In this document: piece after piece, positions 18,901 through 64,000 of the stretch
How the letters are laid out: every line of letters starts with the position of its first letter
Numbering within the stretch: position 1 is the stretch's first letter
Source: Phoronis australis
Lineage: Eukaryota > Animalia > Phoronida
Length of the DNA stretch: 64,000 nt
Direction of reading: 5' to 3'
Assembly: GCA_002633005.1 (NCBI GenBank)
Contig: NMRA01000284.1
Location: 268,978 to 332,977 of the forward strand
The notes under the pieces: model-generated
Told to the model about the DNA's origin: nothing
The model's database searches: none
What the model saw: the letters and a program-made list of their open reading frames with translations, nothing else
Program-made: the position numbers and the translations under genes

Positions 18901-20227
18901 AGAGTTTTTTCCGTCGTTGAATGTATCTGTTTATTTTGTAGATGTCAAAGACAAAGGCGAGTCCATCATCCGTGTTAAGCACGTTGACGACAACGTCATT
19001 GCGATCATGGAGAAATCGTCTGGCGGAGATGTGAAGTATGAAGTCTCGGCTCAGTTTAGCCACCTCAACATACTCCTCAACTTAATATCGTACGGCAACA
19101 GCGACGTAGAGGCGAGACTGGCTGAGATGGAGTCCGCCGTGTTCAAGGTGACGGAAACGGATGGCATCACGGACCTTGCGTATGATGGCGTGATCCCTAT
19201 GACTGACAATGTTCCCGATGAGGTCTACGTCAATATGGCCGTGAAGAAGTTACTGAAGTCACTGGACGTCAGTCATGAGACGCTTTCCAATCTGCTGGTC
19301 ACAAAGCAAGTCGCCAATGCTTTTTCTCGTGCCATTACCAATTTAATACAGTCTGTGTTTACGGAGCAATCTGTTGAACTCACCGATGATTCGGTGAAAC
19401 TGTTTAAGCTTATTCCAGTCATACTCGATGATAAGGATGGTGAGGCAAGGGACTACTTAACAGAATTGGTAGAAAAGAGGTCATCTCTTAGTGAACCTAG
19501 AGGTCCGCCTGAGGAGTCGGAACACTTGTCGCAGGTCGGGAAGTATCCCGAGGATTTCGAAGTGCGGGTCGCCTCTCCTTCGATGCAGGTCAGCAGCAAC
19601 CATTTTTACATCAATGCAGTGGAAAAAATCATCTACGTCACGCAGGAAGAGTATGATAAATACTTGCGAGAAGCAAAAAGGTCACAGGTCGACCACGGAA
19701 ATGCCGCGATGACCGATGACTTGTTGGATACAAACTTTCAGGAAAGTCAAAGGGGGGAAGATTCCGATGTCGGGTCAGTCATAGAAGGAGGAACTTCGGA
19801 ATTAAAAACGGATCAGTCAGAGGACGAGAACACGGGATTAAGTGCAAAAATGGAATTGAGTGCAAGTGACCTTAATCATAATAGTGTAGATAGTGAAGAG
19901 AGACGATCGGAAGAGGTGGAGGGTGAAGGGTCCGTGGAAGGAGCAGCTCAGGGAAGTGAAAATGGGTTGGTGGGCAGAGAGGGGGTGGGTACAGAGAGTG
20001 AGCGAGATATAGAACAGGCGTTAGAAGTCACTGCCAGAGTCTTTCAGGAGCTTAAACGGGCCACGCTGGCCGCGGAAGGGACAGTTGAAGATTCGAATGA
20101 ACGTGCGCAGCAGGGGACAGAAACGGCAGAAGAATTGCTCAAAACGCTTGATGAGGAGGAGACGAAGGAGGAGATGAAGGAAGGGAGAGAGGATAGCAGG
20201 ACGTTTGGGGGCAAGGACGAGCTTTGA
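935..20227 (+). CDS. EDEM3: ER degradation-enhancing alpha-mannosidase-like protein 3 (signal peptide, GH47 domain, PA domain, KDEL); 18 coding exons, about 1202 aa
   Basis: join(935-1041,4023-4068,4788-4888,5794-5946,6254-6407,7451-7585,9192-9395,9955-10080,10397-10564,11039-11163,13393-13555,14007-14170,15249-15381,15687-15768,16341-16453,16662-16827,17639-17821,18942-20227) = 3609 nt. All introns are GT-AG and all phases match. Kozak accATGG plus a hydrophobic leader. GH47 motifs: [89 protein letters not shown] domain: [15 protein letters not shown]-terminal KDEL. Confidence 0.96.
1500..2428. mobile_element. Non-autonomous Mutator(MULE)-like foldback DNA transposon in EDEM3 intron 1
   Basis: Highly similar terminal inverted repeats of about 270 bp (1500-~1770 and ~2157-2428, starting TAGGCAATGACCATCGCC). 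Exact 9-bp target duplication AATGGACTA at 1491-1499 and 2429-2437. Explains the mirror-image ORFs 1506-1826(+) and 2102-2422(-). Confidence 0.88.
3520..3724. mobile_element. Degenerate MITE (about 205 bp)
   Basis: Imperfect inverted ends AGCGCTCGACAAAAGCGA / TCGCTTTGTGTCGAGCCCT, with internal TACGAGTA/TACTCGTA motifs. No clear TSD. Confidence 0.45.
5878..6150 (+). repeat. 85-90 bp tandem repeat copying the 3' end of EDEM3 exon 4 and its splice donor
   Basis: Units begin CATTAGAGACGTGTCATTTGAC (with variants) at 5878, 5968, 6056 and 6141 (partial). The full units contain GTATTGGGGTAGGTAGTA or a close variant. Confidence 0.9.
6504..6968. mobile_element. Degenerate MITE (about 465 bp) in EDEM3 intron 5
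   Basis: Inverted ends TAGAGGCCCTGGCTTTCC / GGAAAACTAGGGTCTCTA. Confidence 0.5.
8111..8675. mobile_element. PIF/Harbinger-like MITE in EDEM3 intron 6
   Basis: TIR GGGCTGTTCCAG / CTGGAACAGCCC, extending imperfectly to about 40 bp. Flanked by TAA on both sides (8108-8110, 8676-8678). Internal repeated ACCACCCRTAWWTTTT motifs. Confidence 0.8.
11319..13275. mobile_element. Non-autonomous Kolobok-like DNA transposon (about 1.96 kb) in EDEM3 intron 10
   Basis: Perfect 15-bp TIR GGTAGGTGTATACAC / GTGTATACACCTACC with TTAA on both sides (11315-11318, 13276-13279). GG..CC termini fit Kolobok rather than piggyBac (CC..GG). No transposase ORF. Confidence 0.82.
14405..14590. repeat. Diverged two-copy tandem duplication of about 92 bp (intronic)
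   Basis: AATGTGTGTTAT...GTTGGCCMAGGAAGTGATGAAA...TTTGAGAGGTC occurs twice. Confidence 0.75.
15099..15209. repeat. Compound (TG)n microsatellite with four GCGCATGCAC inserts
   Basis: Read directly: an uninterrupted alternating purine-pyrimidine tract of about 110 bp. Confidence 0.95.
15475..15657 (-). mobile_element. tRNA-derived SINE (diverged copy) in EDEM3 intron 13
   Basis: Collinear with the copy at 61195-61378; degenerate A and B boxes on the minus strand. Confidence 0.75.
15778..15862. mobile_element. Short palindromic MITE family (relatives at ~3477-3512, ~21646-21848, ~22345-22420)
   Basis: GGGTCCAGCATTGTGAGAACCAGTT ... AACTGGTTCTCAAAATGTGGGACCC; the same AAAACTGGTTCTSAAAAT core recurs at the other loci. 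Confidence 0.65.
17150..17550 (+). mobile_element. Decayed CR1/L2-type LINE reverse transcriptase fragment in EDEM3 intron 16
   Basis: Frameshifted RT motifs: [16 protein letters not shown] (cf. NYRPISLLP..SKIFEK) and [15 protein letters not shown] (cf. FLDLSKAFDTVDH). Confidence 0.75.
17858..17935. repeat. 24-bp minisatellite (about 3 copies)
   Basis: GTTATTGTATTGTTTGTATGGWCA repeated just downstream of the exon 17 donor. Confidence 0.9.
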
Positions 20228-26911: not shown

Positions 26912-29900
26912 CTATACCAGAACCGCAGTGGGCATAATTTCCGGCGAAAGGGGTATCCAGCGCATATCTCCATTTGCTGCAATTGGAAAGAAATTGTGCA
27001 CCTCAAGAAAGTATCGAGTGATTCGATTGTGAATTCAGTTACTTGTATGCAGAGATATAGGTCCTGACTACCAAACAAACCGACGCAAGTACACTACTAG
27101 TAAATGCATGACCACTAGATGGCACCAGCGCGACATCGAGTTAAATGGCACATATTCACCAAAGAGAACACCACATTTTAAGATAAAGTGGGTTGCTTCA
27201 CCCGAAGCTTAAGATAATGCTTTGCCTCGGTTTTACTTAAATTCAGCTCCATTCTTTATTAATTGTTTACACGATATATACAAAAGGTCCAACATGGCGT
27301 GCAGTCATGTTCACGTGACGAGAGTGAGACAATGACGTCAGCATAAAGCGCGTAACTAATTACATGATTTTCTTCAGAAATGCTGCGCTTCAACCGATTC
27401 ACCTAATCAAAGAAATTCATTCCTAAATACAACAAAAGTGTCGGTGATAAAGTATCACCCTTGCGCACAACGAATCTTACCGACAGCGAATCGGTGGAAT
27501 TAATTCTAGTAACCTGAACAACGGAAACAAAGTAAATGGTATTCATGGCAGTTGTACACAATCAATGTTATTTAACAGAAGTTTATGAAATAATTAATTA
27601 GTATCCACACGGTCATAAGCCTTCTTCATAATCAACACTTTGCAAAGGTAGGCAAGATTTCGTTTTTTTCTGGTTCAGATTATAGATGCTAGTGATCAAA
27701 CGTGGTCGCTACATGACCTACCTTTTCGGAAACCGTTTTATCCCATAGCTAGCAAACTATACCTCTTAACAAAAGACGATGTCCTGCCATTCAAAATACT
27801 ACTATAAATTTTATAGACGCAAGAAAGTAGTCTGATTTCCGTGTAGTTTAATGGAACACCAAGATCCTTATTCGAACCTTTTAGAATAGAAATAATATTG
27901 GCTAACAACCACACTGACAGAAAATACCGCGAAATTAAAACCAGCCTGAACTAGTTCATACAGTGCATCAGCCACCGCGGTATGCTTTTATAGAACTCCG
28001 TCGTGAATATCGTCCATACCCAATCCCAATACGGTTCCCGAATTTTGGGCTGAACTTCAACAGTAGTGTGTGCATAGTATACACATATAACACACAACGT
28101 AGTCCTACAAGAACCCGGTACTCCTTACTTGACTCCAGACTTGGCCAAACCCATTGCTTGAAAGTTTGCTCAACGAGTGCAATGTGATGCTAATTTTGGA
28201 ATCTAGTTTAGAGAAAAGTTTGGTATTAATAGGCTTAAGTGCAGAAGCAGAAGATTAAAAGTCGACAGCGCCTGACGAAACGTAGGTGTCAAATTTTTGA
28301 GTTTGTACTGTGTAGTCACTGGAAACATATCCCATTCAGTTTCAACTTCAATCCGGGAGCGGTTTTAAAAGGTAAACGTCAATCTGTGATTGTTAAAAGG
28401 AAATGAAGCCCTGTTTTGATGACTTCAACCAATCCTCGGTCTGTCACCAGCTAGCTAATGTATCATTGGCGTCAATCGTGCAAGTTAAAGACAGGAATCA
28501 ACTAATAAGTCCCCCGTACCTCTCAAACTGGATATTAGGGTCCTTAGTGGGTGGTCTTTTCCCATAGTTAGCGTGTAATTTGCTAAAAGCGAAGGTGACA
28601 CTTGCCCATTTAGCAGACTATAAAGGAGTTTTCAAGTTTTCCTCCAAACTTTTGACGGTTGTCGAGGGTTACAGAGCATTATGTTGTTTCAGAGAATTAG
28701 ACGGGAAAGTCGTTATTATAATAGGCCAAAACCGGGTTTGGTATCCTTTTAAGCGCCCCCAGCAATCTTAAGATCTGCATTTGAGGTATGTAATTGCCAC
28801 GGGTTTTCCTGCACGTGTTCTTGTACATTCTTGTACAAAGAAATTTTCTGAGAACGTGTAGTGAAACGGGTCACGTTTCGAATGAAAAAAATATACGAGT
28901 GTATACGAAAATACAACTACTCCGCGTATTCGTTTACTTACTCTGTTGTTAGCCTGCTACTAGTCTGGTTATTTGCCGCGGTTGACTTCACTCGTCTTCT
29001 GATCAGCCACAGGATGAGGAAGACAAGACAAGGAAGAAATAAGATCAAACAAGTGATCAGTATGACGTAGCCATCAGTGTTGTCCGCGAAGTTTCCTGCA
29101 AGTAGGGTTGACAGTAAACGGAACCGTTCACAGTACTGAACATTATTTACCATGGCTGAGTTAGACGCAAGAATCTCGCAAAGTAAAGGAATTAAGCGGA
29201 GTATGACCACATGTTTCGCTTGTACTACATGGCAATATCTCGCGAAGTCGTGTGATTTTACGTTTTCGCGAGATTATCGCGGCTTTCAACTCGCCTTGAT
29301 TGACGTGAGCTGGATGCGCTCAGCCACCTTTCATTCCAGGCAGACCTCGTGTCTCATCGTCTGCGCTGAGTTTTAAGGTTGCTACTTATTGGAACCCATC
29401 TTTTGAAACAAACAGTTGATTTAGGACAATTAAGCTGTGAAAAACTGGTACGAAGGTGTTCTCTGAGTTTGGCTGGGAAGAACTAACGCGGAGCCGCTCC
29501 TGCACCGGACCATGCAGGCTCGGCCGATATGGTTCATCATGGTGGTCGGCATTTAATGCCCCAATAAGGGTGGCGGCTTGAGCACTACGACTCTGTTATT
29601 TCTTCCCAAACATCATTCTCCTCGTGTGAATTAATAGGAAATTGAGAACACTTTTGTGACGAAAAGTCATCTAAATCAAAGTTAGTTTCTACGATCGATG
29701 GCCGTACGCGGTTCATAGCTATATGCTATATAAGCACACGGTGCCAAAACAACTTTTTTCGCAAGCGCATTTGGATTTCCAAAGCAACGTTATCGCGTTC
29801 TTTTCCTTTGGTAGAACTGAAGTCGGTCACACAATGACACATGGAATCATAGATTATAGACAGCTGATAAGCAACTCAGACATTATCTTGCGTAATATCC

Positions 29901-40233: not shown

Positions 40234-43200
40234 TTACGACTTGTTGGCAACGGCAGCATCTTTGAGAACTCTTCGTAGGATCTTTCCACTTGCCGTTTTG
40301 GGTATTGCATCGATAAACTTAACGCCACCTCTAAGTTTCTTTGATGGCGCTACTTTAGCTGTTGAAAGAAATTTAAGTGTTGTTTAAATGTGATATAATG
40401 AAAGAAACAAGTTCACATCATTAAAATAATTACAAGAACAAACCTCAACTACACTGAATGCCTTTTGCAGGTCATCAAAAACTACCATGTTGAAAATCAA
40501 CCTACAAAGTGAAACGTAGTTGTTCGTCCAAACTTTCCGAGGGTTAATTACACGAAGTATTTCAACTCTAGTACCAGGAGTTTTATACAGACAATCCCGA
40601 GGCGTACATCCTTAATATCAGTTTAGGGACCAAAAGTCAAACTCAGACATAGGAATGTTTTGAAATAGTTTCGATGTCGCCCTGTCCCCACAAGTACAAG
40701 TTCATAGGTGAAAATTTAGTTACAGCTTTGATATCCTATGATGAAACAGGAAAGAGTTTTAGGATTCAACCATTCATATTTCCCAAATCTTCAACCTAGG
40801 CATTTCTGCGAAAATTGGTCTTTTATAACCCACTTAGCGCATCTAAAGATGCCGCTATCTGCACCGCGGCTACCAGCGGAAGATCATTAGACAACTTCAA
40901 GGGTTATTATTTCGAGAAATATGAAAATTGTAAATTTTAATTTCAATCTGCTTATGTCAAGCGTTGAAAGGAATTCCTCACTTGAGCCAGTCACCTTTTC
41001 AAGCTACCCACCACGTTGTTTGAAAGTCACTCAAGAAATAGCGGGCTGCCTTGGTAGAGACAAGATACTTCAGACAAAAGCTAGTGTAATCACGTGGTTT
41101 GCTTGTAAGGCAAGGTTATGCCACATGCAGACTCGAGTGATCATGCGTTTTCGCCCGGCAGTTTTTGCATCTATGGAACGTAGTCCGGAGTACTTACCAT
41201 TCACATATTCCAGGATGTCGACTTCACTGGACTCCGAATTTGGCTTCAGTACCACGTATGCTCTCGGTAATTCCCCAGCCTCTGCATCAGGTAAGCCAAT
41301 GACGGCGCAGTCGTACACACACGGGTGACTCAGCAACAAGTGTTCCAGCTCCGCAGGGGCGACCTAGGTAAAACAAGGGAAGGATGTGCGTGTTTAATGA
41401 ATTATGTAGTACTGAGACCAAAAAATTTAACCTTGTTATTACTTATCTCGCCAGGGGCGGATCCGGGATTTTGAGTTGGGGGGAGGGGGGGGGGGGCAGA
41501 GCAGANCACTCCTGAACTACCAATTAATGGAGAATTTTGAGAGGGGGGCATGGCCCCCTTGCCCCCCACCCCCTAAATCCGCCACTGCTTGCTTCTACAT
41601 TTACAGCCTATTAGTAAATTGTTCTTGATTCAAACTATTTGTAATATTCCACCTACTTTCATCTTCCACCCTCACCTCTCATGTAACTATTTCCTACCTG
41701 GAAACCTTTATATTTAATCAGTTCCTTTAATCTGTCGGTGATATAGAACAATCCTTCCTCCGTGTAGCATGAAATGTCGCCTGCAAAAATCGGCACACAA
41801 TTTGTATGACGGATGACGGATAAAAAGACAAAATTCAATATGAATGGCAATGACTTTACTTTCAATCTTCAAATAGCCGCCAGGTGGCAGGCCTACCTGA
41901 ATGAAACCAGCCATTTTGATCAATCGTTCGGCTGGTGGCTTCCTGGTTGTTCCAATACCCTTTCATTACTTGCGGCCCCCGAATAAGTAACTCCCCCTCT
42001 TGGTTCGGTCCCAAGTCTTCACCGGTCTCGATATCTACAACCTGAAAATAAACAATTCTGTCACTTTGAATGGACAAACACTCCCTCTTTTGGACACTTC
42101 GTGGTCTCTATAGGAGATGCAACTTTTTCTGGATGCACAAGTTACTGTTAAATTGTTATTTACGGAAGTTTTTAACAATAAACCTATTCATAGAATCTCG
42201 TTTACTGAATATTTTTTACAAATCTTGCTGCTGGTAACAAGTAGCAAAATTTTGTTGTTGTGTGAGTCATATAGTTTATACAGACGTTTTCACTGTTCAC
42301 AATCACACAAATTATCATAATTTATGTGCAGTCATTATACGAACTTATCCTTATTCAGTGATTAAATATATGTTAAACTGCACGTGTATCTATATAGGCG
42401 ATCAGCTGTGGTTGCTGCAACCAGTAAATATCTTAGACATACCTTAAAACTATAATTAATCATTTCATTACTGTTGGCACAAATCTTAGCTCAATCAATC
42501 TGACAATGACAACTTTGCTGGGCATACACTCAACAGAAGGCCTACCTTACACTCCGTCCGTGGCAGCGGGTACCCAATGGAGCCTACATCTTCGGTATCC
42601 CATTTGGCCAAATGAGTTATGGGACTGGTCTCTGTTAATCCATACCCTACAAGATAGCACGACACCTTGTTTACCATTTATCCTGGTACAAACCTGCCGT
42701 CGGTCACAAAAACGAAGTTTTGATTTAGACCATTTTCCGCCAATGTGAAACCACGAAAAGTCGTCGCTTACGGAGCGGAAACAGTGAATTGTATCCCATA
42801 AATCACCACTCCAACCTCACCGACCAATCACATCAGTGGCCGCCATTTTGCTAGGTTAAAGTAAGTCTCTAGCATAATTGCAAACCCTTGTCTTTCATTC
42901 GAGTGACGTCGGGCAGTCTTGTGTGTTCTCGCCTTTCTTGCAAGAAACTTGGTAAACGTGACATTCAAGTGTAAACCTATTGTCATTCCGTCCGTGTGAA
43001 TCGTATAATGTGAAGTGGAAATTATACAGTGTAGTTGCGATTCGCAAAATTGATGCAACTTTGCTCGTGTACAGAATGACTACCATTTGGAAGAACGAAC
43101 GGAAAACAATCACCATTACGGCACATCTATACATATCTCTTGGCGACTGTATTTTGCCATTACTAGAACTAATAAAGTTTAGAGCACCTTACCTTGTCGG

Positions 43201-46200
43201 AAGTACTTGATGCCGGTGTTTTGTTTGAACTCCTTCGCCAACTTGTTGCCGCATGGTGCAGCAGCAGACAACGCGCCATGGACGCTCGATAAGTCATACT
43301 TTGATATCATTGGATGTTTAGCCATCAACAACACAATCGGAGGGACTAGATGTAGGACCGACACCTGGATAGAGTTCAAAAACGCAAGCACCTCGCCAAA
43401 TAAGACTAATCTCGCGAGATATCACCCTGTATTTTCAATGAGAGCACGTGATTTTCGGCTAGAAAGCTCACGAAAAGTAGCCGGATTACGCCTAGACATA
43501 ACTGAACTGTTAAGGGCTGTTACCAGCGTTTGGTATTCACCAGAGGACAGCTAATGTTTTCGCCAATTGTGTGCTTACAAGAAAACGTGAATTTCACAAG
43601 TATGATTTTGTAATAAGTCCTAAGACGTATAGTCGGAATTAAATGACATGTTTCTACCTTTTTGGTGTCCCCAAATATTAGCCCTGACGTACTTTGGCAA
43701 TAAGGGGCTTGTAAACATAGAACGTGTCATTGAAATGGATTGAGAACCAGTATTTAATGTTTTAAGAATAAAGTAAATCCATTATGTAAACAAGCCAAAA
43801 AGTGGCGAAATGAACACAGCCCCGTTTCCCATAAAGCCTTGTTGTAGGTTGACACTCAGTGACTATGTTCATTTTTGGAGACCCTACGAACTGTAGATAT
43901 TTGTAACTGTGACTTCGAAAGTACGCCCATGGGCTTATATTTGGGAGGGCTGTTGGCAGAAATTCCCGCTGCTGTTACTTAACAATGCCGCGAATTTCAT
44001 AAAAAGTGGAGTCCTGTAAACTGGTTATTTGCGAATAAAAAGAAACGTCCCTCCAGGAACGCTTGATGAAGAATTACCTTATGTTCCTGGATGCAATCGA
44101 GGAATACTTCCGGTTCAAATTTAGACAGAGTTACGATCTTGACCCCTTGCTGTAAGCCAAGAAACAAAATGGCCACTTGTGCGTAAATGTGGAAGAACGG
44201 AAGTACCGCTAGGTAGACATCTTTGCCGTGGATAGCGCCAAGACCGAATGGATAGCTAGTAAACAAAGAGTAGGTAGGTTGATAATGTCCTCACGTGGTA
44301 ACTGATGCTTGTACATGTCTTTTAGTCGTTAGGCTAATATTGACAACTATGTATATTAATGCTCATAATAGTGAAGATGAATTTTAATTTCAAAATGAGT
44401 ATTATTAGGATGCTAAAGGTGGTGATAACTACGACGCCGACGATGACGGTGGTTGCCGTGGTGACGACGACTACAATAAAATAGTGGCGACAATGACGAT
44501 GTTCAGAGCGTGAAATCGCTTGTTGTTCTATGATGTTTCACGACTCGCGAAAGCAGCAACATAACCAGGGGCCTGTTTCATGGAAAGTGAGTCATGTCTT
44601 AAGTCAGAAATTTAGTTTCAGGCTGCAAACAATTATTTCTGAAAAAATAATTAAATGCCTATTAAGCAAAAGCACAAAATCTTCAAGAATATAGCCAGAA
44701 TTGCTAGTAACTAGAATGTGGTTTACTAATTATTACATGGTTAAAATTTAATAAGTAATTGTGAAGTGTATCGTAAGACCAATTAACATTTTTCGTTAAC
44801 AGACCCCAAGCGTCTGAAACTTCTAGATTCTTGTAAGGTATCACAGAAAAGGTGTAAAAATTAGCAAACGAAAACTTAGTTCAACTTCAGAAGATTTCGT
44901 GAAAAGCGCCGTGTTCACTTCGGAAAACTCTCTGAATAAATTCCAAAAGCATAGTCACCAAATACAGATTAACGAGAAATTCTTTAGCATTCTTTGCTAT
45001 GGCAAATGGCATCCAGTTACAACGAATATTTTTTTACTTTTCTATTCTCAGCCCATTTGATCTGCTATGCGCTATTTAGCGATCACAGCGCCTCCTTTTG
45101 CCAACTTACTCACTGCTTTGCACCAAATTTGAAACAACGTTATAGTGCGTAAGCATGACTCCTTTCGGCAAGCCTGTTGTACCACTTGAGTATGGCAAGG
45201 CTAACAAGTCATTTTTGGGGTTTATCTCTGGTGAGGTCGGATAACAGGCACTGTCGTCACGGACGAGATTGTCAAATGAATGAAACCCGGGGACTTGCTC
45301 TCCTATGACAATGAGCTCCTGAAAAATACGTTCAGATATGCTAACAGAAGTTCATCGAGAGGAAAATTTTGAAACGCAAATTGTGCCTCTTAAACTGCTT
45401 TCTAGTGTTAGTAGTTGATTGCTAAACCATATCGTAGTCCAAAAATACGCTCTTTTAAGCTGTAAGGTACGAAAACGTCAATAGCGGCGCCACTGCCAAT
45501 GTCGGGGACATTTCTCCAACTTATCGAAAAAAGCATAAAGCTGCGTTGCAACCTTCTGGACGAACTAAGACGTTTCTGAATCAGAAATGATGAACTTCGT
45601 TGCGTTCGCTACACACACGTATACATAAACTACACACAGACTGAAAACACGCCTGAACGAAATGCAGCGTCACTATGATCCATTCGCTCCTCACAAATTT
45701 ATTTTTTTGAAGTATAAAGGCTACAAGCATCGGTTACCTGAATCGACCAGTCGTGCGAACAGCGTGATAAACCTTTACAACGAATGCAACAAACCTGTAG
45801 AGTCGAGCATTTCCTTTGAACCATCTGCGCAGTGTGAGCAGACGTCGGCACCGTCACCAAGAATTTAGCGCCAGTGTTTTCAATTTGGAAAGACAGTTCA
45901 TCTGCAATGAACCAGTATCAAGAACTCTGCAGCGAAAGATCGAAATTAGCAAACAGGCGGGTCACTTTCGGGCAACAGGGCCCAATAAAACTATACTTCA
46001 AATGACGAACAGTGAATCTGGCCAAGAACGACCTGCGCCATTGTTGGCATAATTAGACCCATCAACAAATTGTAAGACGGTGGAACGTTCACTGCAAGGG
46101 ACTGATGATCCGATCTGATGCAGAAGTGTAATCTATGACCAGATAAAATGCACATGTAAGCGTGGCATGGTCAAACTACAAAACCTGCTACAGAAGGCAT

Positions 46201-49200
46201 ACATAGTGGTGAATTACAAGCGTGCTCTGTTTGATCAAGCGCAACTCACCAACAGTATACAAGGGATTTGCCGCAGACACGACTCCTCCTATACCGGACA
46301 CAGCCAGGAACACGATGCCATATTCCGGAACATTATGACTGTAGAGACATAGTACGTCGCCAGGTTTGAAGCCCAGTCGTACGAGGGCGCTACCTAACCG
46401 CTTTGCCGTCTCGCGCACTTGATTGAAGGTGTAATGGTGGCCCGTCTGACCGTCGATCTATGGACACAGAATAATACACATGTATTCTAAAATTATTGGA
46501 CATTTTTGTTGGACTTCGTCAATGCAATATTAACAAGTTTCTCGGGATTCGTGGCTTGGTTTGATCCAAGAAAATATATTGGTTGTTGACTGGCGTTCGA
46601 TGAAACTTTTGTAACGTGAAAATGGCATTCCGGGTACCTATCACTAAATCCGCCTGTGGGAGACTCCAATCAAACGTGACGAATTAATAATCTTTTAAAT
46701 TCCAAAAGAAAAGTGGCATGGGCAACACGTAATACATCGTCACGGCTAATGACTCATAGTTATTTGTCCGTGCACTTTTCCCTCAACTTTTTCGTAGATT
46801 TTGTACAGGTGCTATTGGTTATCAGCTCAGCCAACGCAGTGCGAAGTAAACATTTTCTAAAATTATACGGAATCTACCATGTTCGGTTTTACTGCTTTGA
46901 AGCCTGCTTTCAATAATTTGTGTAAAAGACAGCTACATGATTAGTTATAATACCAACGCAAGAACTCATCGTGTTTTAATGTTCACCAGGAACAACGCCA
47001 AATGCAGAGAAATAGCGCAACACCGCTTAATGTCAAAACCTTATCCTATATACGCGTGATGATACTGCCGTGAGGTACTCGGATACGAAGGAACTACTTT
47101 TCCGAATCAAATACGCATTTGATAGGGAATTAAGCACATTTCGCTAGGGGAAGCTAGTATGCAGCTGGTCTCAAAAAATCATTTTTCTCGACGACAATGT
47201 ACCTTTAAAGGTAGTATGTTTGTACAAATATTTTTATGATTTGCAACCGTAATATCCATTCGTCTTGCGTTCTATCTTTTTTAATTTTCTTTACTTGGCG
47301 AGTTTCTACATGAATTTTTTCCATTTTTAATTGATTTCCTACATAATTTATGCAAATATGTCTGTCACTTCATCTTCTACAGCGCTTCAATCTACTATTT
47401 CTACTGTTTTTGTTTCATTCTTATTTTTTGGTACAGATATTAATCATATTTTATTTATTTTGTACTGTATATTTGTTTCATGTCTTTTATTTGTTATTAT
47501 ATGTATTTATTTTTGTACATTTGAACAGCGAATTTTACTGAACAGGCTACCTATCATAAAAATATTTCATTCATTCATTTATCTATTCATTCGTTCATTC
47601 ATTCATCCCTTTACAGTGAAATCGGTTTCAGTGAACAGAAGGAAGTAACCGTTTCCAAGCATTCCATACCTGAACCGAGTTTTCAATGTAAAGCCGCACT
47701 CGCTAGTGGTTAATTGGTCATTGATTGTGATTCATCACTAACAAAAATGAAAATATACGCGAAAGTCTTCCAACTTGCATCCTGCTGATCGTTCTCGACA
47801 GACACGTTCAGAATTTCGACTGTGACAGTTTTTGATTTTGTTTATATGTAGGGCTTACAGCAAATATACATTCGCTGCTGGCTCTGCGGTTATTGACAGC
47901 CATAGGCGTGTCAGGCGGGAAGGCGGGGGTTGCACACAATAAAAAATACGGGACACAGAAGGAGGGGTGTGGAATGGGTGACTACGACCCTAAGAGGAGA
48001 AATAGTTGTTAGCGACCGTGTGTCAGTGGGGATGACTTTCAGTAGCAAACTAAACCAGTGTACAGGCAACGTCAGCCCTGGAGTTCTGCGCCTTCTGCTG
48101 TCACGGGGATGGTCTGGGGAGGGGATTAATGCAACAGCATATCCCCAATGATCTTGTCCGTGACAGGTATTACAGGTATTACTAAAGCAGAATGAAACAC
48201 GTAGTCATCAATGTCAAGTTTTTCAACGGACAAGTTGATATGATGTGTTTTTGACAGGTTTCGAAGCCAATAGTTGGCCACCTCACTTAAGCTATTCAGT
48301 TGTCTGTATCCAGCCGTCAGCTAGGACCGGTTATTTCCGCACTACGGTGAATTATATAATTCCGCAAATGGCCTCCTATTTACCGATTCTAGGTTCGACT
48401 AAAGTTTACTCGATACGAATCAAATCAAACCTTTTTATTTATAGTCAGTTTGACAAAATAGACAAAGGCTTATGTCACCGACTGTAGATAATAATATAAA
48501 ACGTAAATAATAAAATAATGAAAAACCAAACACATGAGAAAACACATATTGAGGAAATATCGTGAAAGTATGGCACACACGCATACACACGCACACATAC
48601 ACACCAGATTTAAAATCTGCATACACAGCACTTGCACGGTGGTTCTGTCCAAGATTTAATAAAATTAAAAAGTTTATAATCCATGAACTTGGACTCTAGC
48701 AAGGAGTTCAGTGACGCTCGCACTCCAGTCCTGATACACACCTGAGTGCCCTGTACCAAAGATTTTATAGTTACCTCTTTGCCTGTACTGAAGGCGCTCG
48801 AGTTTTGCAGTGTTCGTCGTGCTGCAGAAAGGCCACACTAAGTTACAGTAACTAAAGCGTGACAGGACAAAGCATTTAAAAATAGCCATCCGTGACACAT
48901 GGTCAAGCTGTNAGAATTCCGCCAAGTAACAAACATAGTGTCAGAGCAATATACTTGGCGAAATTTATTTCGCCAAGTAAAAACTTGACGACAGAGCAAC
49001 ATACTTGTCGGAATTCGAAGAATTCCGCCAAGTAAAAAACTTGACGACAGAGCAACATACTTGTCGGAATTCGAAGAATTCCGCCAAGTAAAAATTAAAA
49101 AGTTTATAATCCATGAACTTGGACTCTAGCAAGGAGTTCAGTGACGCTCGCACTCCAGTCCTGATACACACCTGAGTGCCCTGTACCAAAGATTTTATAG

Positions 49201-49771
49201 TTACCTCTTTGCCTGTACTGAAGGCGCTCGAGTTTTGCAGTGTTCGTCGTGCTGCAGAAAGGCCACACTAAGTTACAGTAACTAAAGCGTGACAGGACAA
49301 AGCATTTAAAAATAGCCATCCGTGACACATGGTCAAGCTGTCCTGACAGCCTTTGAGGACGCTAAGCTGCGCCGCATCCTTCCGACTTAGAACTCTGGTG
49401 TGCTGTGCAAAACTTAGCTGTTTGTCCAGCAATAACACGATGTCTTCAGATGATATGAACACTGTACTTACCACTGCCACGGCGTCTCCGAATTCATCAA
49501 ACCGACTCGTTAAGTAATCGTGAAATGTTACATCGTGCGGAAGCTCTCCGCATGTGAACGGACTAGCTACGATTTTTTCATCGTGCCTAAATCGCACACT
49601 AGTCTGGCTACAGACACGCATCAATCGGTGCGTAGATTTCGCCTGCCTCCCCGAAGCCTGACTGTGAAGAGCCGCTGTTACTATTGGACGGTAGCATCTT
49701 GCTATAAAAGTCTTGTAATGTCTTTCGATATTGAGAAGTGCTCGACGGCTGCTGGAATAAACGCAGGCCAT
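40234..49771 (-). CDS. 4-coumarate--CoA ligase-like / firefly-luciferase-like acyl-CoA synthetase (ANL superfamily); 11 exons, about 597 aa
   Basis: complement join(49771-49472,46457-46250,45901-45795,45318-45110,44255-44078,43364-43193,42646-42546,42041-41897,41780-41698,41363-41198,40358-40234) = 1794 nt, GT-AG, phases consistent. Motifs: [101 protein letters not shown]. Confidence 0.94.
41452..41587. mobile_element. Short, internally deleted family A MITE, 5-bp TSD
   Basis: Ends CAGGGGCGGATCC / AAATCCGCCACTG; flanks CTCGC / CTTGC. Confidence 0.75.
48661..49341. repeat. Exact 251-bp direct duplication (48661-48911 = 49091-49341) separated by an N and ~60-bp tandem units
   Basis: The copies read as identical at offset 430, and the first ends exactly at the N at 48912. 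The spacer consists of GAATTCCGCCAAGTAAAAACTTGACGACAGAGCAACATACTTG-type units. Confidence 0.9.
49210..49440 (-). mobile_element. Decayed CR1/L2-type LINE RT C-terminal fragment in intron 1 of the ligase gene (partly duplicated at 48780-48911)
   Basis: [28 protein letters not shown], then after a frameshift [34 protein letters not shown], resembling LINE IDxKLxF..H and LEYCxxVW..IxKLERVQ motifs. Confidence 0.75.
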
Positions 49772-56951: not shown

Positions 56952-58720
56952 CAATTCAATCCATTGTAGGGTGACCTTGCAAGAAGTGACTTTCCTCAGC
57001 ATGAAAGCCGGTTGTACGATTTCAAAAAAACAGGAAAATGGAGATAATTGATTTCAACATTGTGCCCTCTCTTCCTGTGCGGCCTCTTAAGAATTTGCCA
57101 ATCAATTCATGAAAAGGGTGGCCACTTGAATGTCGTCTGTGGTCCTCTTTAAGAGATTGACCCCTAAATATCTATATTTTCAAAAGTCAGGAAATGCGCA
57201 GCAATTCTTGTTATCTGCCAGGCCATCAATTTTCTCAAGTGATACACAATTTAGAGAAAACAAAACATGAAAAATGGAGCGACAGTTATCTTTGTTGCCC
57301 TTTGGTAGAGAAGGACCTCTGGAAAATATTTTACATTTCTGCATTTGCAAAACTGTGTTATTGAATTTAAAAATCCAGTGAATTAATATGCTCCGCAAAA
57401 GCTTCGCTTTACGAATTTTCTTGATTTTTCGAAATACACATATGAATGATAAAGTGCACGTTTTCAAGTGCGTTTAGACGACCTACATGTATGTAGCAAA
57501 ACGGAGACCCTAGGCCATAAAAGGGTAAAACATGCACTGAAACTGAGTCGTCAAATGTTCTCTTGAATTTTTATCTTATCCGTATTCGTATTATCTCTTT
57601 TCTCGACTGTACCTGGCCGCAAGCCATGGTTTAACCCTGACGCCTGCAAATCTTTGGGGCCACGCCCCCCTTCCCCCGCTTCCTACGCCCCTGATACTCC
57701 TAGAGTACTCTAAAACAGCTGTTGCCGTTGACTTCTCAGCTGGTTCACGTGACTTTGCTGCTGTTGCGCGCGCAGATTCCCCTAAAGAAGGAATAAGACC
57801 ACAGTTCGAGTGGCTGATTCTGAATTTATCACTGGACTGAGTCAGTGAAAGCCCTTGTTTGCGCAGCTGTCTCAGGCACTTGAAAAAGGCATAACTGACA
57901 AAAATTACACTCTATGGGATTTCTCAAAGACTAAGAAATTCAACAAAGCTCTCTCTCTTTTTACCCTGCTAAATCCAGTGAAAAAATTGAGCTGCCAAGA
58001 AGTGACCAAAAAAGCCCGATTTTGGCCTTATTGTACCAGAAATAACAAATCCACGACTGCCCCTGTGCATGATGAGACCATAATCCGAATGCTCTTTCTC
58101 TCTAGATTCTCTAGATTCCAGAAATTCAGGTTAAAATATGTCATTACTTCCCTGATTTTGACAATTTCCACTTATCTGAAAGGTACCTGGATTCGGGCAA
58201 AAAATTTAACATTGAACAAGGATGTGCTCTCAAAATGACCACACTTCTATATCCGAGTAGACAAGAGCAGCGGCCGAATTTCTGGATTCAATTGACTCAA
58301 CGCAACTTCAGTGAACTACTGGCAACTGCTTCCTATTTAGTTCACAAAACTGCTGTCAAACCTGACCCACCCCATTTTCTTCAGTTTTGAGGCAGCTGCA
58401 ATGGCCGAACCGTGGTCTTAGACGGAAGCCTAAAATCTTATTGTCTTCTTTCCCTAAACGTTGTAGATGCTAATCATGAAACTATTCGTCATTAACACAA
58501 ATCGATATATGGACTTGCGAGTAAGTTTTTTTAATCAGAACTTGTGAGTGAGTAAATAATTGTCTCGTGGTAATTCCTTGTGAAACGCTGACATCGGCGC
58601 GAAAGTTTCACGTGAGTGGCAGCTGTCCAATCGGTATATGATTAGTAAACGCGAAGGCGGAGCAATGAATCTCAAGTACAAAACCAAATAACTGTCACTA
58701 AAAGACAGAAAAGCTGAAGA

Positions 58721-61700
58721 ATGTTTTGGACGAGATATTCACTGTTTTTTGCGCTTATGAGTCTATTAGTTGTCTCTTTAGCCTACGACAATTTTTATTC
58801 TCGACTGGAGAAAGGTAAGACAACGGGTCGCTCGCACTATGACAGGTATTTTGAGCATTCAATTAGATAGTATTATTTTGGCTTCTATACTGGGTTTGTA
58901 AGAGTAATTTGAGAAATGGACATTCATCTTGAAATAACCGGTCGAGCTAAATGAATTTCCAAATTCCCAATAACGGACTGTAAGTAACGACCAAACGTTT
59001 AAAAGAGTTGTCCTAATTTCTTTTCAAAAGGACAGACTGCCGATCACTCCTACATTTCCGCAGCATGACAATTGGTGACGGCAGGGGGAAATTCTCCTAT
59101 CCCTATACTTGGGCAAAGCGACGCCCTATGCACCCCCAGCACCCTAGTCCAGATACACCTGTTAGATTCTTTTGTGTTAGAATATTTCTCCCACTGTAAA
59201 TAAATCAAATTTGTGTCCCAATTCTGATTTTTTAGTGCTTTTCGTCTTTCAGGTTACAACAGACGAGTGAATTATCCAATGAGGTAAGTAAGTTACATAC
59301 ACTAGCCCCATGGGAGGGCACAACGTAAAGTCTCGTTAGGCTATACACACGATTAAAGAAAAACGCGAAAGGCGTCACTTTTCGGGATGCTGACATATAA
59401 GACGCGTTTAGTGCACGTTCTCAGTCCCAGGGAGTAGAGAACCTTAGAAACTCGGACGATTTTGAAATTTTGTTCTAACATTCCTAATTTTGCCTGCGCA
59501 GATATGGTCATCGAGGTCTCACAAGAGATTACAGATTATTATATGAGAAATTAGATTTATCGAGTATGTCGCTTTGAAAGGGACTTGGCACTTGACAATA
59601 AACCTAATTATTTCGCTTGCACTTATAGTAACATGAACATTGTGTGCAATTTTGTCCCAATGGTCACGTACGCTATTGTAGAAAATAAGGTGTCCCAAGA
59701 TAACTTAAAATTACCTTCTGAAATATAAATAGCAGACAAGTGTTTTACTGGGAACCAGTGGTGTTTTTCATATTCCAATAATTTCTTTAGTCAAATTTTT
59801 TTCTCATTTTACAATAATTGCTGACAAACGACGTATTATCTGCACGGCTGACACTGTCACAGTCTGCGCATGCCCCCACACAACCAATGAGTAGGCCAAC
59901 ATCACATTCAGTCATTGTATCTCATGTTTAAATCGAACACGAATTCTGAAAACAAACACGGAAACAATTCTTTTATTTTTCATTCTAACTTTGCGCATCG
60001 ACTTTGTTGAAAATTCTTCGATGTCTGCGCTGGCGTTGCACCTTGAGTTTAGTGCGAAAACTCAAAAATGTGATCTCTTCAGTTAGAGCCAACTGCGGCA
60101 ATATGTCTATGCGTTGCAAAATAAACTTGAGGATTTTTGAAATAAGAAAAACACAACACAATTACTCCCCAGTAATGCCATATCTGTTAGACATATTTTC
60201 GAATATATTGTTAACACTTTTTGGTTACCCTGTACGAACTTCATCGTTACCTTCGGGACCGTGCTAAGAGCTAAACTTATATATGAGTGACCATACGCAT
60301 ATACTAAGTAGACTCTAGAGGCAAAAAGTCTTGGTTTATGGCACCGGAGTTACGTTTTAACTAGCTTACCCCAATTATTCATCATTCCAAGCTCATTTCA
60401 TTGCCACCATTGGACCACAGCTGTTATTACAATGAGAGATTTATGGTGCATCTTTCATTTTCGCCACCTGTTGGCTGAACATGCCGGTTCACGTTCATTC
60501 TCTGGTTTCATTGGTTGGTTTCATTGTCGTTGGAGTGACGTCACGACGTAAAAGGTTGTTCATGGGTCCAGCTCGTTTATGATTTGTTATAAAGTACATT
60601 CAGTGTGAAACGTAGGTAGTGGAAACTCCATTATTAATCAACGATTTCTATCGATATTCCGCACGTGTTCTCTTGTGCGCGCGTTAATGGTCAACTGCTT
60701 GATTCTAATTGGCCTCTTGGCAATTAAATCCATTTCTGCTTATGTTACGTCACGTTTAATTTGCGTGGCAATGCTCTTTAGTTGTAAACCAACGATAATG
60801 TATTTTTATTCCAATGTGTTTTGACAGTAATGTCAATTTACATGCTTGAATACCCCTAAGATGACGTCGTTTCACTTCCATATGTGGTCACGTGATTGTT
60901 CTTTCACGCGCATACGTTTCTGTCTGGTTCCCGGCATGAACGCTAGATGGTGGGGCAGCTACCTCTTCACGTAGAGATTGAAAGAGTTTTCTCCTTTTCA
61001 CTTAGATGTGCATAGTTTTCTTACCTGTGAAACTAGCGTTGGCCTCCTATTCTTACGTACATGTATATTCTATTAGCGTACTTCTTCTCACATGTCTGCG
61101 TCTTTTAGCACATGGCATCCAGCGCTAACTTTTTTCACTCATGTCTATGGGGGTAAATACTACTGAATTTCCATTTTAGACAATTTTAGATCCCCGCTTT
61201 CGCATTATATCCAGGTTCTCATCCATTCCCGTGCATGCATTCTCTACTAAGACTGAGCTCAGAGGAGTATGAGACACCTTTGTGCAATGCTCGATTGTTT
61301 CCTAGGAGGGCCAGGATTCGAACCCGGGTCTCCCAAACGGGAGTCCGGGGCTCAAACCACTGAGCCACACAGTCCTCCACTTTAAGAGGTCGTAACGTTT
61401 GAAATCTTGTGCAATGAACTTCAAACCTTCTCCCTACTCAGTTCAATGATAGCATGCATTTATTTCGACATGAAATCATTCTGAATATTGTGCTTTTACT
61501 AAATCTCAAATACAAAACTTAATGCGAAATTTTAATTTCGCAATGAGCTTTGGTGAAAGTCTATTATTGTGAGTGTGCAGGGGACCACTTTGTGTCTTCA
61601 TTGTTAGGACAGCAAGTATCCGTTACTAAGTTACTTGACGCTATTTTATGACTAGTCAAGGGTTCCAATAGATCGGAGTCGTCTCTGCTAGGCCAATAAG

Positions 61701-63842
61701 TATAATCATTTAGAATAGAAAAAACGGGCATGCGTACTGATGCAAGCGAGTGAATTAAAAATCAAATAAGTTGTCTTCATAGTAAATAAGATTATTAAAT
61801 ACTTTATTAGATAAGTAATTGAAGCAGGTTATTACTTTAGTTAGTCTTACATGGGTGGTGCAGCACTGAAAAAAGTTGGGGGCTATAGCCCCCCAGCCCC
61901 CCTCCCTGTGATGCACCGCCAATAGACCATGGGCGACGCTGTAGCCCTCCCCCCAGCACTCTATGATGCGCCGCCCATGTCTTACTTGAACTTTTTTAAC
62001 TTCTTTCTTGGTCTGTGCGTACGTCGTTCAACTCTGTAATGGTAATGATTTTCTCAATACTTGGAAAAAACGACGTGCGCTTGTTTGTTTGTCAAATAAT
62101 GTATTAATGATGTTGCGTTACTATGTATTTCAGATGGTCAAAAAAGTCAATCAGGTAGGGCAGTGGAACATTCTGGAAGTTTTCTCATGTCTCCGTGTTG
62201 ATCGCTAATACAGCTTATGCTTTCTGTTTTGTGCGACAGCAACAAAAACAACGTCATCATCATCAATGACAACAAAAACAACGCCATCAAAAACACAAAA
62301 CAAAACAACAACATAAACAACAACATAAATAATAACAACAACATGTAACTTTCATTTAACAATTGCCCCACAACAAAGACAGAGGAATGAGGCCTGCCCG
62401 GCTACGGACCTTTGGACATTTGCCGCGGTGTATTATCTTCATTTCGGGATTCTATGCACCAGTGTATAGAAGCAACTTCTGCTGTGAACTCTTGCTAAGG
62501 GGGAATAGATGAGCTACATATAATAATATAATTTGTCTAAGTAGACACTGCTGACATGGGCAGAAGTGAAAATGGGATCACAAAATTTGCTCTGAAGAAT
62601 CTCGATAGAGGGTTTAGTAAGATGAGCAGACAAGAGGAAGCAGTTACGTTTGTGGCCACCTTCTGACGCCATTTGTGGACAGTAACTTGGATCAAATGCC
62701 AAGCACCAGCAACATAAAGTGACGAACGTGCATGGCTACATTCTTCTACAAGCCGGTTGACTATATATACGTAAGAGGATTCTCTTGAGTGTCAAATCGG
62801 GTGTTTGTGCAATGGGCCCGCCCTAGGTGGACGGCGCACTACTAATGGAATTTGAGCATCAGACCTCCTGCAATCTTTTCAAGTTAGTAATTACAGTTAC
62901 AATCGTCTGTTTGAAAAAGTGTTGCATCACATCCGACCAGTGCTATGTGCATGTATAGGAACATAACTTGCACACATACCATCACGCGCCTGCATACATA
63001 TAAAAATACATCATGAACACAAACGCATACATACAAACAAAACATATACGCACTAACATTCATACATACAAACATATATAATACATACATATTTACTAAC
63101 ATAGACATTTATGCCGCAAACAAACCTGGACAAACATACATTTTGTACATACATTCACATACACCTAGGACTATTATACACACACACAGGCACGCACGCA
63201 CGCACGCACGCACACTCATATACGTACATATGCACACACGTACATACATACATACATACATACATACCGACAAACATGCATGCCTTCCTATGTATCAATA
63301 CAAGTTTTTATAAATATTTATATTTGCTAATATCATGTTGCTATCTGTGTATGGTACACTTACGGAAGATTTTTAGGGTTGCGATAAATTAGTGCCTGGT
63401 GTCATTTTCACTGAATTTTGTTTGAGATTTTTCGCCACTGAGGACACACGCAAGGTATTTACAGAAATGTCTACACCACAGGAAAACATTCAGAACGCCT
63501 CGGGTATTTGCGTGGTTTCGATTTTACCGTCGGAGATATACGTTAACTGCGCATGTGCGGACTTAAGTCATAGGCAAGTCATGAGAATTTCAAACTGGAG
63601 AACAACTGGCCGTATGACTGAAGCTCCCTCATACGTAGAAAGCGTTCAACTCTTACGGGTACCCGAGATGTTCCATATGGGCAATAAAACGTACGTCACC
63701 GCACACTTTAAATGTTTATGTCGTGCATGTTTCATCTTTGCTTTACCAATTTCTTTTGCAGTTGCCGAATTGTTTCTTTCTTACCGCACTGTCGCACCAA
63801 CATTTTTAAAAGTATATTCTCATTAACGGAAGTCAGAAAAAG
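58721..63842 (+). CDS. Putative secreted peptide precursor, elevenin/SNET-1-like; 5' part only, continues beyond the window
   Basis: join(58721-58814,59253-59283,62134-62154,63762-63842). Each exon has a GTA donor and each internal exon a pyrimidine-tract CAG acceptor; phases run 1-2-2-2 with no stops. Translation: MFWTRYSLFFALMSLLVVSLA/YDNFYSRLEKGYNRRVNYPMRWSKKSISCRIVSFLPHCRTNIFKSIFSLTEVRK(R/S). It shows a signal peptide, dibasic RR/KK/RK sites and a C-x8-C loop. CACGTG and CCAAT lie about 100 bp upstream. Confidence 0.65.
61195..61378 (-). mobile_element. tRNA-derived SINE
   Basis: Minus-strand head GGAGGACTGTGTGGCTCAGTGG...GGGTTCGAATCCTGGCCCTCC with Pol III A box (61367-61357) and B box (61324-61314). 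The non-tRNA body is shared with 15475-15657. Confidence 0.8.
61850..61979. mobile_element. Family C MITE, 5-bp TSD
   Basis: Ends CATGGGTGGTGCA / TGCGCCGCCCATG. Exact TCTTA duplication at 61845-61849 and 61980-61984. Confidence 0.78.
62237..62345. repeat. AAC/ATC-rich low-complexity tract
   Basis: Read directly. Confidence 0.8.
62960..63280. repeat. Degenerate ACAT/ACGC/AC simple-repeat region
   Basis: (CA)n, (GCAC)n and (TACA)n runs; the source of the spurious ORFs 62884-63108 and 63111-63392. Confidence 0.85.
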
Positions 63843-64000
63843 GTATGAACAGACTGCACTCGCACTACCGTATTACTTTAATCTGGTCCACGTTGCGCGC
63901 CTGAATACTTCCACATGGCGCCATTACGTACAGCCCGGGTCAAATGGACATTGTTTATATTCTGAACATTTACCATTTGTTAATTTAATGAATCTATTTT

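What the first reader, a model, noticed from the sequence alone, without database searches (positions are those of the whole stretch)
58721..63842. Hidden microexon-built secreted precursor with a divergent elevenin/SNET-1-like disulfide loop
Seen: four short exons (94, 31, 21 and 81 nt), none in the ORF track, splice in frame to a 21-aa signal peptide followed by YDNFYSRLEKGYN-RR-VNYPMRWS-KK-SISCRIVSFLPHCRTNIFKSIFSLTEV-RK(R/S). Known (recalled, not searched): elevenin/L11/SNET-1 neuropeptides have a C-x4-F-x-P-x-C-R ring, such as CTRFVFAPACR in Aplysia L11, usually followed by G and a nearby KR. Inference: the ring pattern is kept here, but the Gly is replaced, the tail is longer and two extra candidate peptides precede it. 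This could be an undescribed elevenin paralogue or a toxin-like derivative that gene finders would miss.
Basis: partly seen in the sequence, partly recalled or inferred. Interest (0 to 1): 0.82.

Follow-up and report, generated by a model that had tools for sequence, protein, structure and literature searches.

The report
Elevenin-like orphan peptide hormone gene
An invertebrate related to segmented worms and lamp shells has a spliced gene built from tiny exons that is predicted to encode a hormone precursor; its predicted ring peptide resembles the nerve peptide elevenin but lacks that family's invariant glycine and diagnostic intron position, so it is likely a diverged offshoot rather than elevenin itself.

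Summary
The gene is real. The four exons have GT..AG sites and join in frame. All three predicted junctions are spliced in one of three raw RNA runs (6, 12 and 4 reads). The product is a predicted signal peptide, two short dibasic-flanked segments and a 27-residue segment with a C-x8-C ring; the C-terminus lies beyond the window. The neighbouring EDEM3 gene places the host in Lophotrochozoa. The ring keeps elevenin's spacing, aromatic residue, Pro and Arg, which shuffles reproduce 51 times in 2,000,000. It fails four elevenin hallmarks: the Gly two residues after the ring (44 of 44 listed elevenins), Asp/Asn before the ring, the nearby KR, and the intron 2 nt after the first Cys codon (here 6 nt further upstream). 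It is therefore not filed as elevenin. My best reading is a diverged elevenin-derived paralogous prohormone (0.5); an unrelated lineage-specific prohormone comes next (0.3). Nothing supports a toxin. No homologue was found, no paper held the motifs I searched, and no earlier scan finding mentions elevenin.

The parts
58721..58814 (+). Coding exon 1 (start codon, predicted signal peptide, most of segment 1); followed by a phase-1 intron
   Evidence: joint to exon 2 in 6 X3 reads
58721..58783 (+). Predicted signal peptide, residues 1-21 (basic n-region, hydrophobic core, small residues at -3 and -1)
   Evidence: hydropathy peak 2.83; cleavage site by rule of thumb, SignalP not run
59253..59283 (+). 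Microexon 2 (31 nt): end of 13-residue segment 1, RR site (59261-59266), start of 8-residue segment 2; followed by a phase-2 intron
   Evidence: (12 reads to exon 3)
62134..62154 (+). Microexon 3 (21 nt, phase 2-2): Trp43, KK site (62141-62146), first residues of the ring peptide
63762..63842 (+). Exon 4 (81 nt, phase 2-2): ring, amphipathic tail, RK site (63835-63840); donor at 63842 leads to an exon outside the window
   Evidence: (4 reads)
63763..63792 (+). Cys50-x8-Cys59, predicted disulfide ring with Phe55 and Pro57, then Arg60; Thr61 stands where elevenins have Gly
   Evidence: compared by eye
63756..63767 (+). Near-tandem hexamers across the exon-4 acceptor (5 of 6 alike); possible trace of a two-codon intron slide
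   Evidence: 1 of 146 acceptor-like sites in the window reaches 5 of 6; interpretation speculative
61303..61376 (-). tRNA-Gly-like sequence inside intron 2, likely the head of a SINE; not part of the precursor
   Evidence: many diverged RNA reads from other copies lie here

Best explanation
[quoted passage not shown] Shown: the exons, the splicing, the reading frame and expression biased to one of three RNA samples. Inferred: secretion (signal peptide by hydropathy), convertase cleavage, the Cys50-Cys59 disulfide, and receptor signalling. Because the ring lacks the Gly that Aplysia elevenin receptors need, I expect it to be a weak agonist at best on canonical elevenin receptors and to act on a co-diverged receptor. 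The host likely keeps a canonical elevenin gene elsewhere.
For: Splicing is confirmed. The architecture is a signal peptide plus three dibasic sites giving pieces of 13, 8 and 27 residues. The ring keeps C-x8-C, an aromatic at ring position 5 (43 of 44 listed elevenins), Pro at 7 (38 of 44), Arg after the ring (42 of 44) and an aliphatic residue two before it (counted by eye). It has Ser at ring position 4, like the three nematode SNET-1 rows. The full relaxed motif arises in 4 of 2,000,000 shuffles. A phase-2 intron lies two codons from the conserved elevenin intron. With the intron as anchor, R42-W43 and K45 fall on the R-W-x-K before the ring in two phoronid elevenins (the phoronid intron position is assumed). 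Canonical elevenin is listed for 19 of 23 nemertean, brachiopod and phoronid species and for annelids, which favours a paralogue over the orthologue.
Against: Gly at +2 is present in 44 of 44 and 21 of 21 listed elevenins and absent here. Gly-to-Ala raised EC50 from 1-25 nM to 5,100 nM or more. Asp/Asn before the ring is absent (present in 42 of 44). The KR that starts 6-7 residues after the ring is replaced by an RK 15 residues after it. The intron is not at the diagnostic place. Elevenin precursors are described as encoding no other peptide. No homologue was found to show that the ring is conserved. The motif was chosen after the fact, and across a very large scan a 1-in-40,000 match is not negligible. 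The C-terminus is unknown, and the tissues of the RNA runs are not given.
Confidence: 0.5

Rival explanations
1. A lineage-specific neuropeptide or hormone precursor unrelated to elevenin; it is processed in the same way, and the ring resemblance is convergence or chance.
For: It fails four elevenin hallmarks, including the intron position. Other families share C-x8-C (Lingula EP/CCHamide). Many Cys-bearing orphan precursors exist in annelids. No homologue was found.
Against: Five ring-associated positions match elevenin at once (4 of 2,000,000 shuffles), and a phase-2 intron and an upstream R-W lie close to their elevenin places.
Confidence: 0.3
2. A secreted defence peptide (antimicrobial or venom-type): a ring plus an amphipathic cationic helix acting on membranes or on another animal's receptors.
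For: The 27-residue piece has net charge +2 and a tail hydrophobic moment of 0.51-0.55. A single-sequence model makes the tail helical. Elevenin has been recruited into cone-snail venom, and Mollusca is not rejected as host clade (AU p=0.15).
Against: Only 4-12 junction reads in 11 million records. No paralogous exons lie in the window. The charge is low. Both trees place the host outside Mollusca.
Confidence: 0.08
3. The host's only elevenin orthologue, drifted together with its receptor.
For: Elevenins are described as poorly conserved in beetles. Four of 23 species in the nemertean/brachiopod/phoronid table have no elevenin listed.
Against: The variable insect elevenins listed still keep the Gly, and in beetles the intron site is used to confirm identity. 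Lophotrochozoan elevenins are very uniform.
Confidence: 0.07
4. The N-terminus of a larger secreted protein, with the basic pairs and the two Cys incidental.
For: The gene continues past the window, and exon 5 was not seen.
Against: Three dibasic sites in 54 residues, no Pfam or PDB sequence match, and a ring motif that is rare by chance.
Confidence: 0.05

Closest known systems
Elevenin / L11 / SNET-1 (Aplysia L11, C. elegans SNET-1, phoronid and brachiopod L11; PMC10175484, PMC8557429, PMC4237046)
   Same: Signal peptide; single C-x8-C ring with an aromatic at ring position 5, Pro at 7, Arg after the ring and an aliphatic two before it; a phase-2 intron near the first Cys; R-W upstream of the ring as in two phoronid precursors.
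   Different: Thr instead of the invariant Gly; Ser instead of Asp/Asn; a 14-residue tail instead of 5-6; two dibasic-flanked segments before the ring; intron 1 nt before, not 2 nt after, the first Cys codon; at least five coding exons against three in a cone-snail elevenin gene.
Excitatory peptide / CCHamide (brachiopod EP; PMC6617912, PMC8557429 supplement)
   Same: Two Cys, spaced C-x8-C in Lingula; a His inside the ring.
   Different: No Gly-Gly/Ala-Asn-amide end, no amidation signal, and the peptide does not follow the signal peptide directly.
Tail DREP (annelid and mollusc doppelganger-related peptide; PMC10501145)
   Same: One disulfide loop followed by one predicted helix.
   Different: The loop is C-x4-C in the sequences shown, the peptide is 53 residues long at the precursor's C-terminus, and there is no sequence likeness by eye.
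Elevenin-Vc1 of Conus victoriae venom (PMC9963005, PMC13311285)
   Same: An elevenin-type ring used outside its usual setting.
   Different: Known only from conoidean snails; its gene has three exons with two phase-2 introns. No venom context here.

Membership tests
Elevenin/L11/SNET-1 | Two Cys separated by 8 residues | tested here: met
   Cys50 and Cys59; definition in PMC10175484
Elevenin/L11/SNET-1 | Aromatic at ring position 5, Pro at 7, Arg after the second Cys | tested here: met
   Phe55, Pro57, Arg60; present in 43, 38 and 42 of 44 listed peptides (counted by eye; one row is a duplicate)
Elevenin/L11/SNET-1 | Gly two residues after the second Cys | tested here: not met
   Thr61; Gly in 44 of 44 and 21 of 21 (the part of the list that I read); strongest effect in the alanine scan
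Elevenin/L11/SNET-1 | Asp or Asn directly before the first Cys | tested here: not met
   Ser49; D/N in 42 of 44 (two bivalves have Phe) and 21 of 21
Elevenin/L11/SNET-1 | KR starting 6-7 residues after the second Cys; one peptide per precursor | tested here: not met
   Next basic pair starts 15 residues after Cys59, and two more segments precede the ring,
Elevenin/L11/SNET-1 | [quoted passage not shown] | tested here: not met
   PMC4237046 Suppl. Fig. 8 legend (the figure and its species are not visible). Here the phase-2 intron falls in codon 49, 6 nt upstream
Elevenin/L11/SNET-1 | Activates an elevenin-clade GPCR in disulfide-bonded form | not testable with these tools
   Needs a receptor assay
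EP/CCHamide | Amidated C-terminus with Gly-Gly or Gly-Ala after the second Cys; peptide directly after the signal peptide | tested here: not met
   against the translation
Tail DREP | Short Cys loop in a 53-residue C-terminal peptide | tested here: not met
   C-x4-C in the sequences shown; C-x8-C here
Prohormone-4 | Short N-terminal peptides followed by a six-Cys LDL-receptor class A domain | tested here: not met
   Only two Cys in the part seen and no Pfam match for exon 4; definition from PMC8398477
Neuropeptide prohormone (general) | Signal peptide and dibasic convertase sites, no other domain | tested here: met
   by hydropathy and pattern only, and the C-terminus is unseen
Neuropeptide prohormone (general) | Neural expression and processed peptides in tissue | not testable with these tools
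   Tissues of runs X1-X3 are not given; no peptidomics

The most novel reading that the evidence does not exclude
The gene is a second branch of the elevenin family in lophotrochozoans. A duplicate lost the Gly switch that canonical receptors need, gained a helical tail and two companion peptides, and rebuilt its first Cys by turning the old splice acceptor into coding sequence (a two-codon intron slide). It would be the ligand of a diverged elevenin-type receptor, or a natural antagonist of elevenin, and would show what elevenin-like ligands can look like where Gly-anchored searches fail, as for the orphan hemichordate and amphioxus elevenin receptors.
Probability: 0.15. Interest if true: 0.75.

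Novelty: new variant of a known kind. Interest (0 to 1): 0.45.

Why it matters
The elevenin lists I read show a uniform peptide with an invariant Gly, and predicted elevenin-like receptors in Saccoglossus and Branchiostoma have no known ligand. A transcribed precursor that keeps the ring but drops the Gly would widen the search pattern for such missing ligands. It also gives a peptide that can be synthesised and tested on elevenin receptors, of which Aplysia has three. It shows that microexon-built precursors can be missing from transcriptome-based catalogues. If it is unrelated to elevenin, it is one more orphan prohormone of modest interest.

Tried and rejected
No whole genome is held, so a canonical elevenin gene, paralogues, receptors and exon 5 could not be sought.

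Homologue searches with exon 4: the word-indexed search of proteins of 52-168 residues had no candidate. phmmer over 1.84 billion representatives gave 2 hits, both repetitive singleton proteins that I rejected as chance. Pfam gave 0 families for exons 1 and 4, PDB sequences 0, the ESM Atlas only scores under 0.8, and a degenerate ring pattern 0 matches in metagenome contigs. These searches used exon 4 or exon 1 alone (27-40 residues), not the spliced precursor, so their sensitivity is low.

Literature: four motifs gave 0 papers. Eleven motifs searched in the supplement of PMC8557429 showed no matching precursor in the passages returned (10 passages were shown for 53 occurrences). The Platynereis precursor supplement (PMC3890597, Additional file 8, with Cys-bearing orphans such as RNT, SHM and WLD) was not read and could hold a relative.

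Structure: a single-sequence AlphaFold model of exon 4 (30 residues, the last three read through into the intron) had mean pLDDT 69.7, a helix over residues 8-29 and a low-confidence ring region. Foldseek found 0 PDB matches. Neither tests the disulfide.

Host: my first tree put the window next to Lingula (SH-aLRT 89); the careful tree did not keep this, so I do not call the host a brachiopod. An apparent likeness of the EDEM3 C-terminal extension to the chiton protein was not significant. A deuterostome host, which would have made this a candidate for the missing ligand, is only marginally rejected (AU p=0.041). An Atlas search with the EDEM3 last exon was uninformative.

No RNA holder was listed by words; the four runs came by species label. 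The second read lay did not reveal exon 5.
Full report
Observation. Intron phases are 1, 2, 2 and 2, so exons 3 and 4 are symmetric and could be skipped in frame; no skipping joint was listed. An in-frame stop lies two codons upstream of the ATG and no acceptor-like site lies near it, so this ATG is the likely start.

RNA evidence. Four RNA data sets under the same species label were offered. In run X3 (11.0 million records, about 19% of the run) the three joints appear with 6, 12 and 4 reads from 5, 11 and 4 start places, at exactly the predicted coordinates once the stated cut offsets are added, all first-mate-minus. Runs X1 (12.8 million) and X2 (11.3 million) and the contig set X4 list no joint. 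Four X3 reads run from exon 2 through exon 3 into exon 4. In X2 the depth values equal one read spanning 63759-63842, from which I infer that the exon-4 donor is used and that the gene continues outside the window. The gene is thus transcribed and spliced at a low level, mainly in one of three samples whose tissues are not given.

Anatomy of the product. Residues 1-21 have a basic n-region, a hydrophobic core (9-residue hydropathy peak 2.83) and small residues at -3 and -1; SignalP was not available. Cleavage at RR, KK and RK would give pieces of 13, 8 and 27 residues, none with an amidation Gly. The third piece holds Cys50-x8-Cys59, has net charge +2 and an amphipathic tail (moment 0.51-0.55). 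A single-sequence model makes the tail helical but has low confidence over the ring.

Host. No genome is held. The window also carries an EDEM3 gene and an AMP-binding-enzyme gene. Fourteen EDEM3 exon translations were placed among 47 homologues chosen from the hits. A quick tree put the window in Lophotrochozoa (SH-aLRT 99) beside Lingula (89). A careful tree of 19 rows kept Lophotrochozoa (100/98), left the window outside the mollusc (97/96) and nemertean (97/93) clades, and left it unresolved with Lingula, Capitella and Owenia. AU tests gave p=0.041 for grouping with Ambulacraria and p=0.15 for grouping with Mollusca. The host is likely an annelid, brachiopod, phoronid or similar; this rests on one gene.

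Homologues. None were found: word search, phmmer on 1.84 billion proteins with two repetitive chance hits, Pfam, PDB, Atlas, metagenome pattern and the window itself. The EDEM3 search also found no close relative of the host (best exon identity 88%), so the blank reflects poor sampling of the lineage as much as novelty. Conservation of the ring is therefore untested.

Comparison with elevenin. In Supplementary Table 1 of PMC10175484 (44 rows, one duplicate, counted by eye) the ring has F/Y at position 5 in 43, Pro at 7 in 38, Arg after the ring in 42, Asp/Asn before it in 42 and Gly two after it in 44. All 21 phoronid, brachiopod and nemertean precursors in the part of the PMC8557429 supplement that I read have D/N-C-x8-C-R-G, with KR starting 6-7 residues after the second Cys. 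The window's peptide has the spacing, Phe, Pro, Arg and the aliphatic residue at -2. Shuffles of its 54 mature residues give the core motif 51 times and the full relaxed motif 4 times in 2,000,000; the motif was chosen after the fact. It lacks the Gly, whose replacement by Ala raised EC50 from 25, 3.1 and 1.2 nM to 8,200, 5,100 and over 10,000 nM on the three Aplysia receptors. It also lacks the Asp/Asn and the nearby KR, and it carries extra segments, whereas elevenin precursors are said to encode no other peptide. [quoted passage not shown] Fig. 8 legend). Here the phase-2 intron splits codon 49, one nucleotide before Cys50 and 6 nt upstream of that place. It is therefore not a member of the family as defined.

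A possible link. The displacement is exactly two codons in the same phase. The hexamers on either side of the exon-4 acceptor agree at 5 of 6 letters, which 1 of 146 acceptor-like sites in the window does. With the intron as anchor, R42-W43 and K45 fall on the R-W-x-K that precedes the ring in two phoronid elevenins (intron position assumed). This fits a model in which an older acceptor 6 nt downstream became coding and supplied the present first Cys. The model is speculative: Cys-Arg codons resemble a common acceptor in any case, and no relative is available to test it.

Mechanism and odds. I take the gene to be a prohormone (about 0.87 over three readings). It most likely derives from an elevenin duplicate (0.5), may be an unrelated orphan (0.3), or may be the host's own drifted elevenin (0.07). 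A defence or venom peptide (0.08) and the N-terminus of a larger protein (0.05) are less likely. EP/CCHamide, Tail DREP and prohormone-4 were compared and rejected. Secretion, cleavage, disulfide and receptor are all inferred.

Papers seen. PMC10175484: passages, section 7, supplement search and Supplementary Table 1. PMC8557429: passages, sections 5 and 8, supplement searches and part 15 of 387. PMC4237046: passages and supplement passages. PMC10501145: passages and one supplement passage. Passages only: PMC5818035, PMC13311285, PMC3890597, PMC6585902, PMC9963005, PMC6617912, PMC4200219, PMC8398477. My statement that the peptide is not in print rests and the supplement searches; searches listed no title on a Gly-less elevenin paralogue. 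Unread supplements, above all the Platynereis precursor list, could hold a relative. Earlier scan notes held nothing near this place or like this sequence, and none mentions elevenin.

Verdict. This is a real, spliced microexon gene for a predicted prohormone with an elevenin-like ring that fails the elevenin membership test. I rate it a new variant of a known kind, interest 0.45, held down by the missing C-terminus and the lack of homologues.

Noticed in passing
window 4788-20227 (+): EDEM3 gene (GH47 plus PA domain) in at least 15 exons; a last exon of over 400 codons encodes an acidic extension ending in KDEL. Used to place the host.
   Followed up: partly
window about 40237-49770 (-): AMP-binding (luciferase/4-coumarate-CoA-ligase-like) gene with an Arg/Ser-rich N-terminal extension that may be a mitochondrial presequence; its last exon does not end in SKL (the targeting rules are recalled).
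   Followed up: no
window 58400-64000: Runs X1 and X2 show scattered low-depth first-mate-plus reads over introns and flanks, suggesting minus-strand transcription across the locus. In X3, where the peptide gene is spliced, such reads fall almost only on repeats. Counts are small.
   Followed up: no
window 61195-61380 (-) and 61850-61970: A tRNA-Gly-headed, SINE-like element and a short GC-rich repeat in intron 2 attract hundreds of diverged RNA reads from other copies.
   Followed up: partly
window 58665-58691 (+): An eight-codon out-of-frame ORF ends 30 nt before the start codon; it would be a uORF if the transcript starts upstream of it.
   Followed up: no
window about 48613-49361: A duplicated stretch with an N at 48912 inside the first intron of the AMP-binding gene; possibly an assembly artefact.
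   Followed up: no
window 28941-29273 (-): Open frame with a hydrophobic, transmembrane-like segment followed by basic residues; only weak Pfam hits (E 0.014 or worse). It may be an exon of an unrecognised gene between 21 and 38 kb.
   Followed up: no
window 1503-1826 (+) and 2102-2425 (-): Two near-identical open frames on opposite strands, an inverted repeat upstream of the EDEM3 exons.
   Followed up: no
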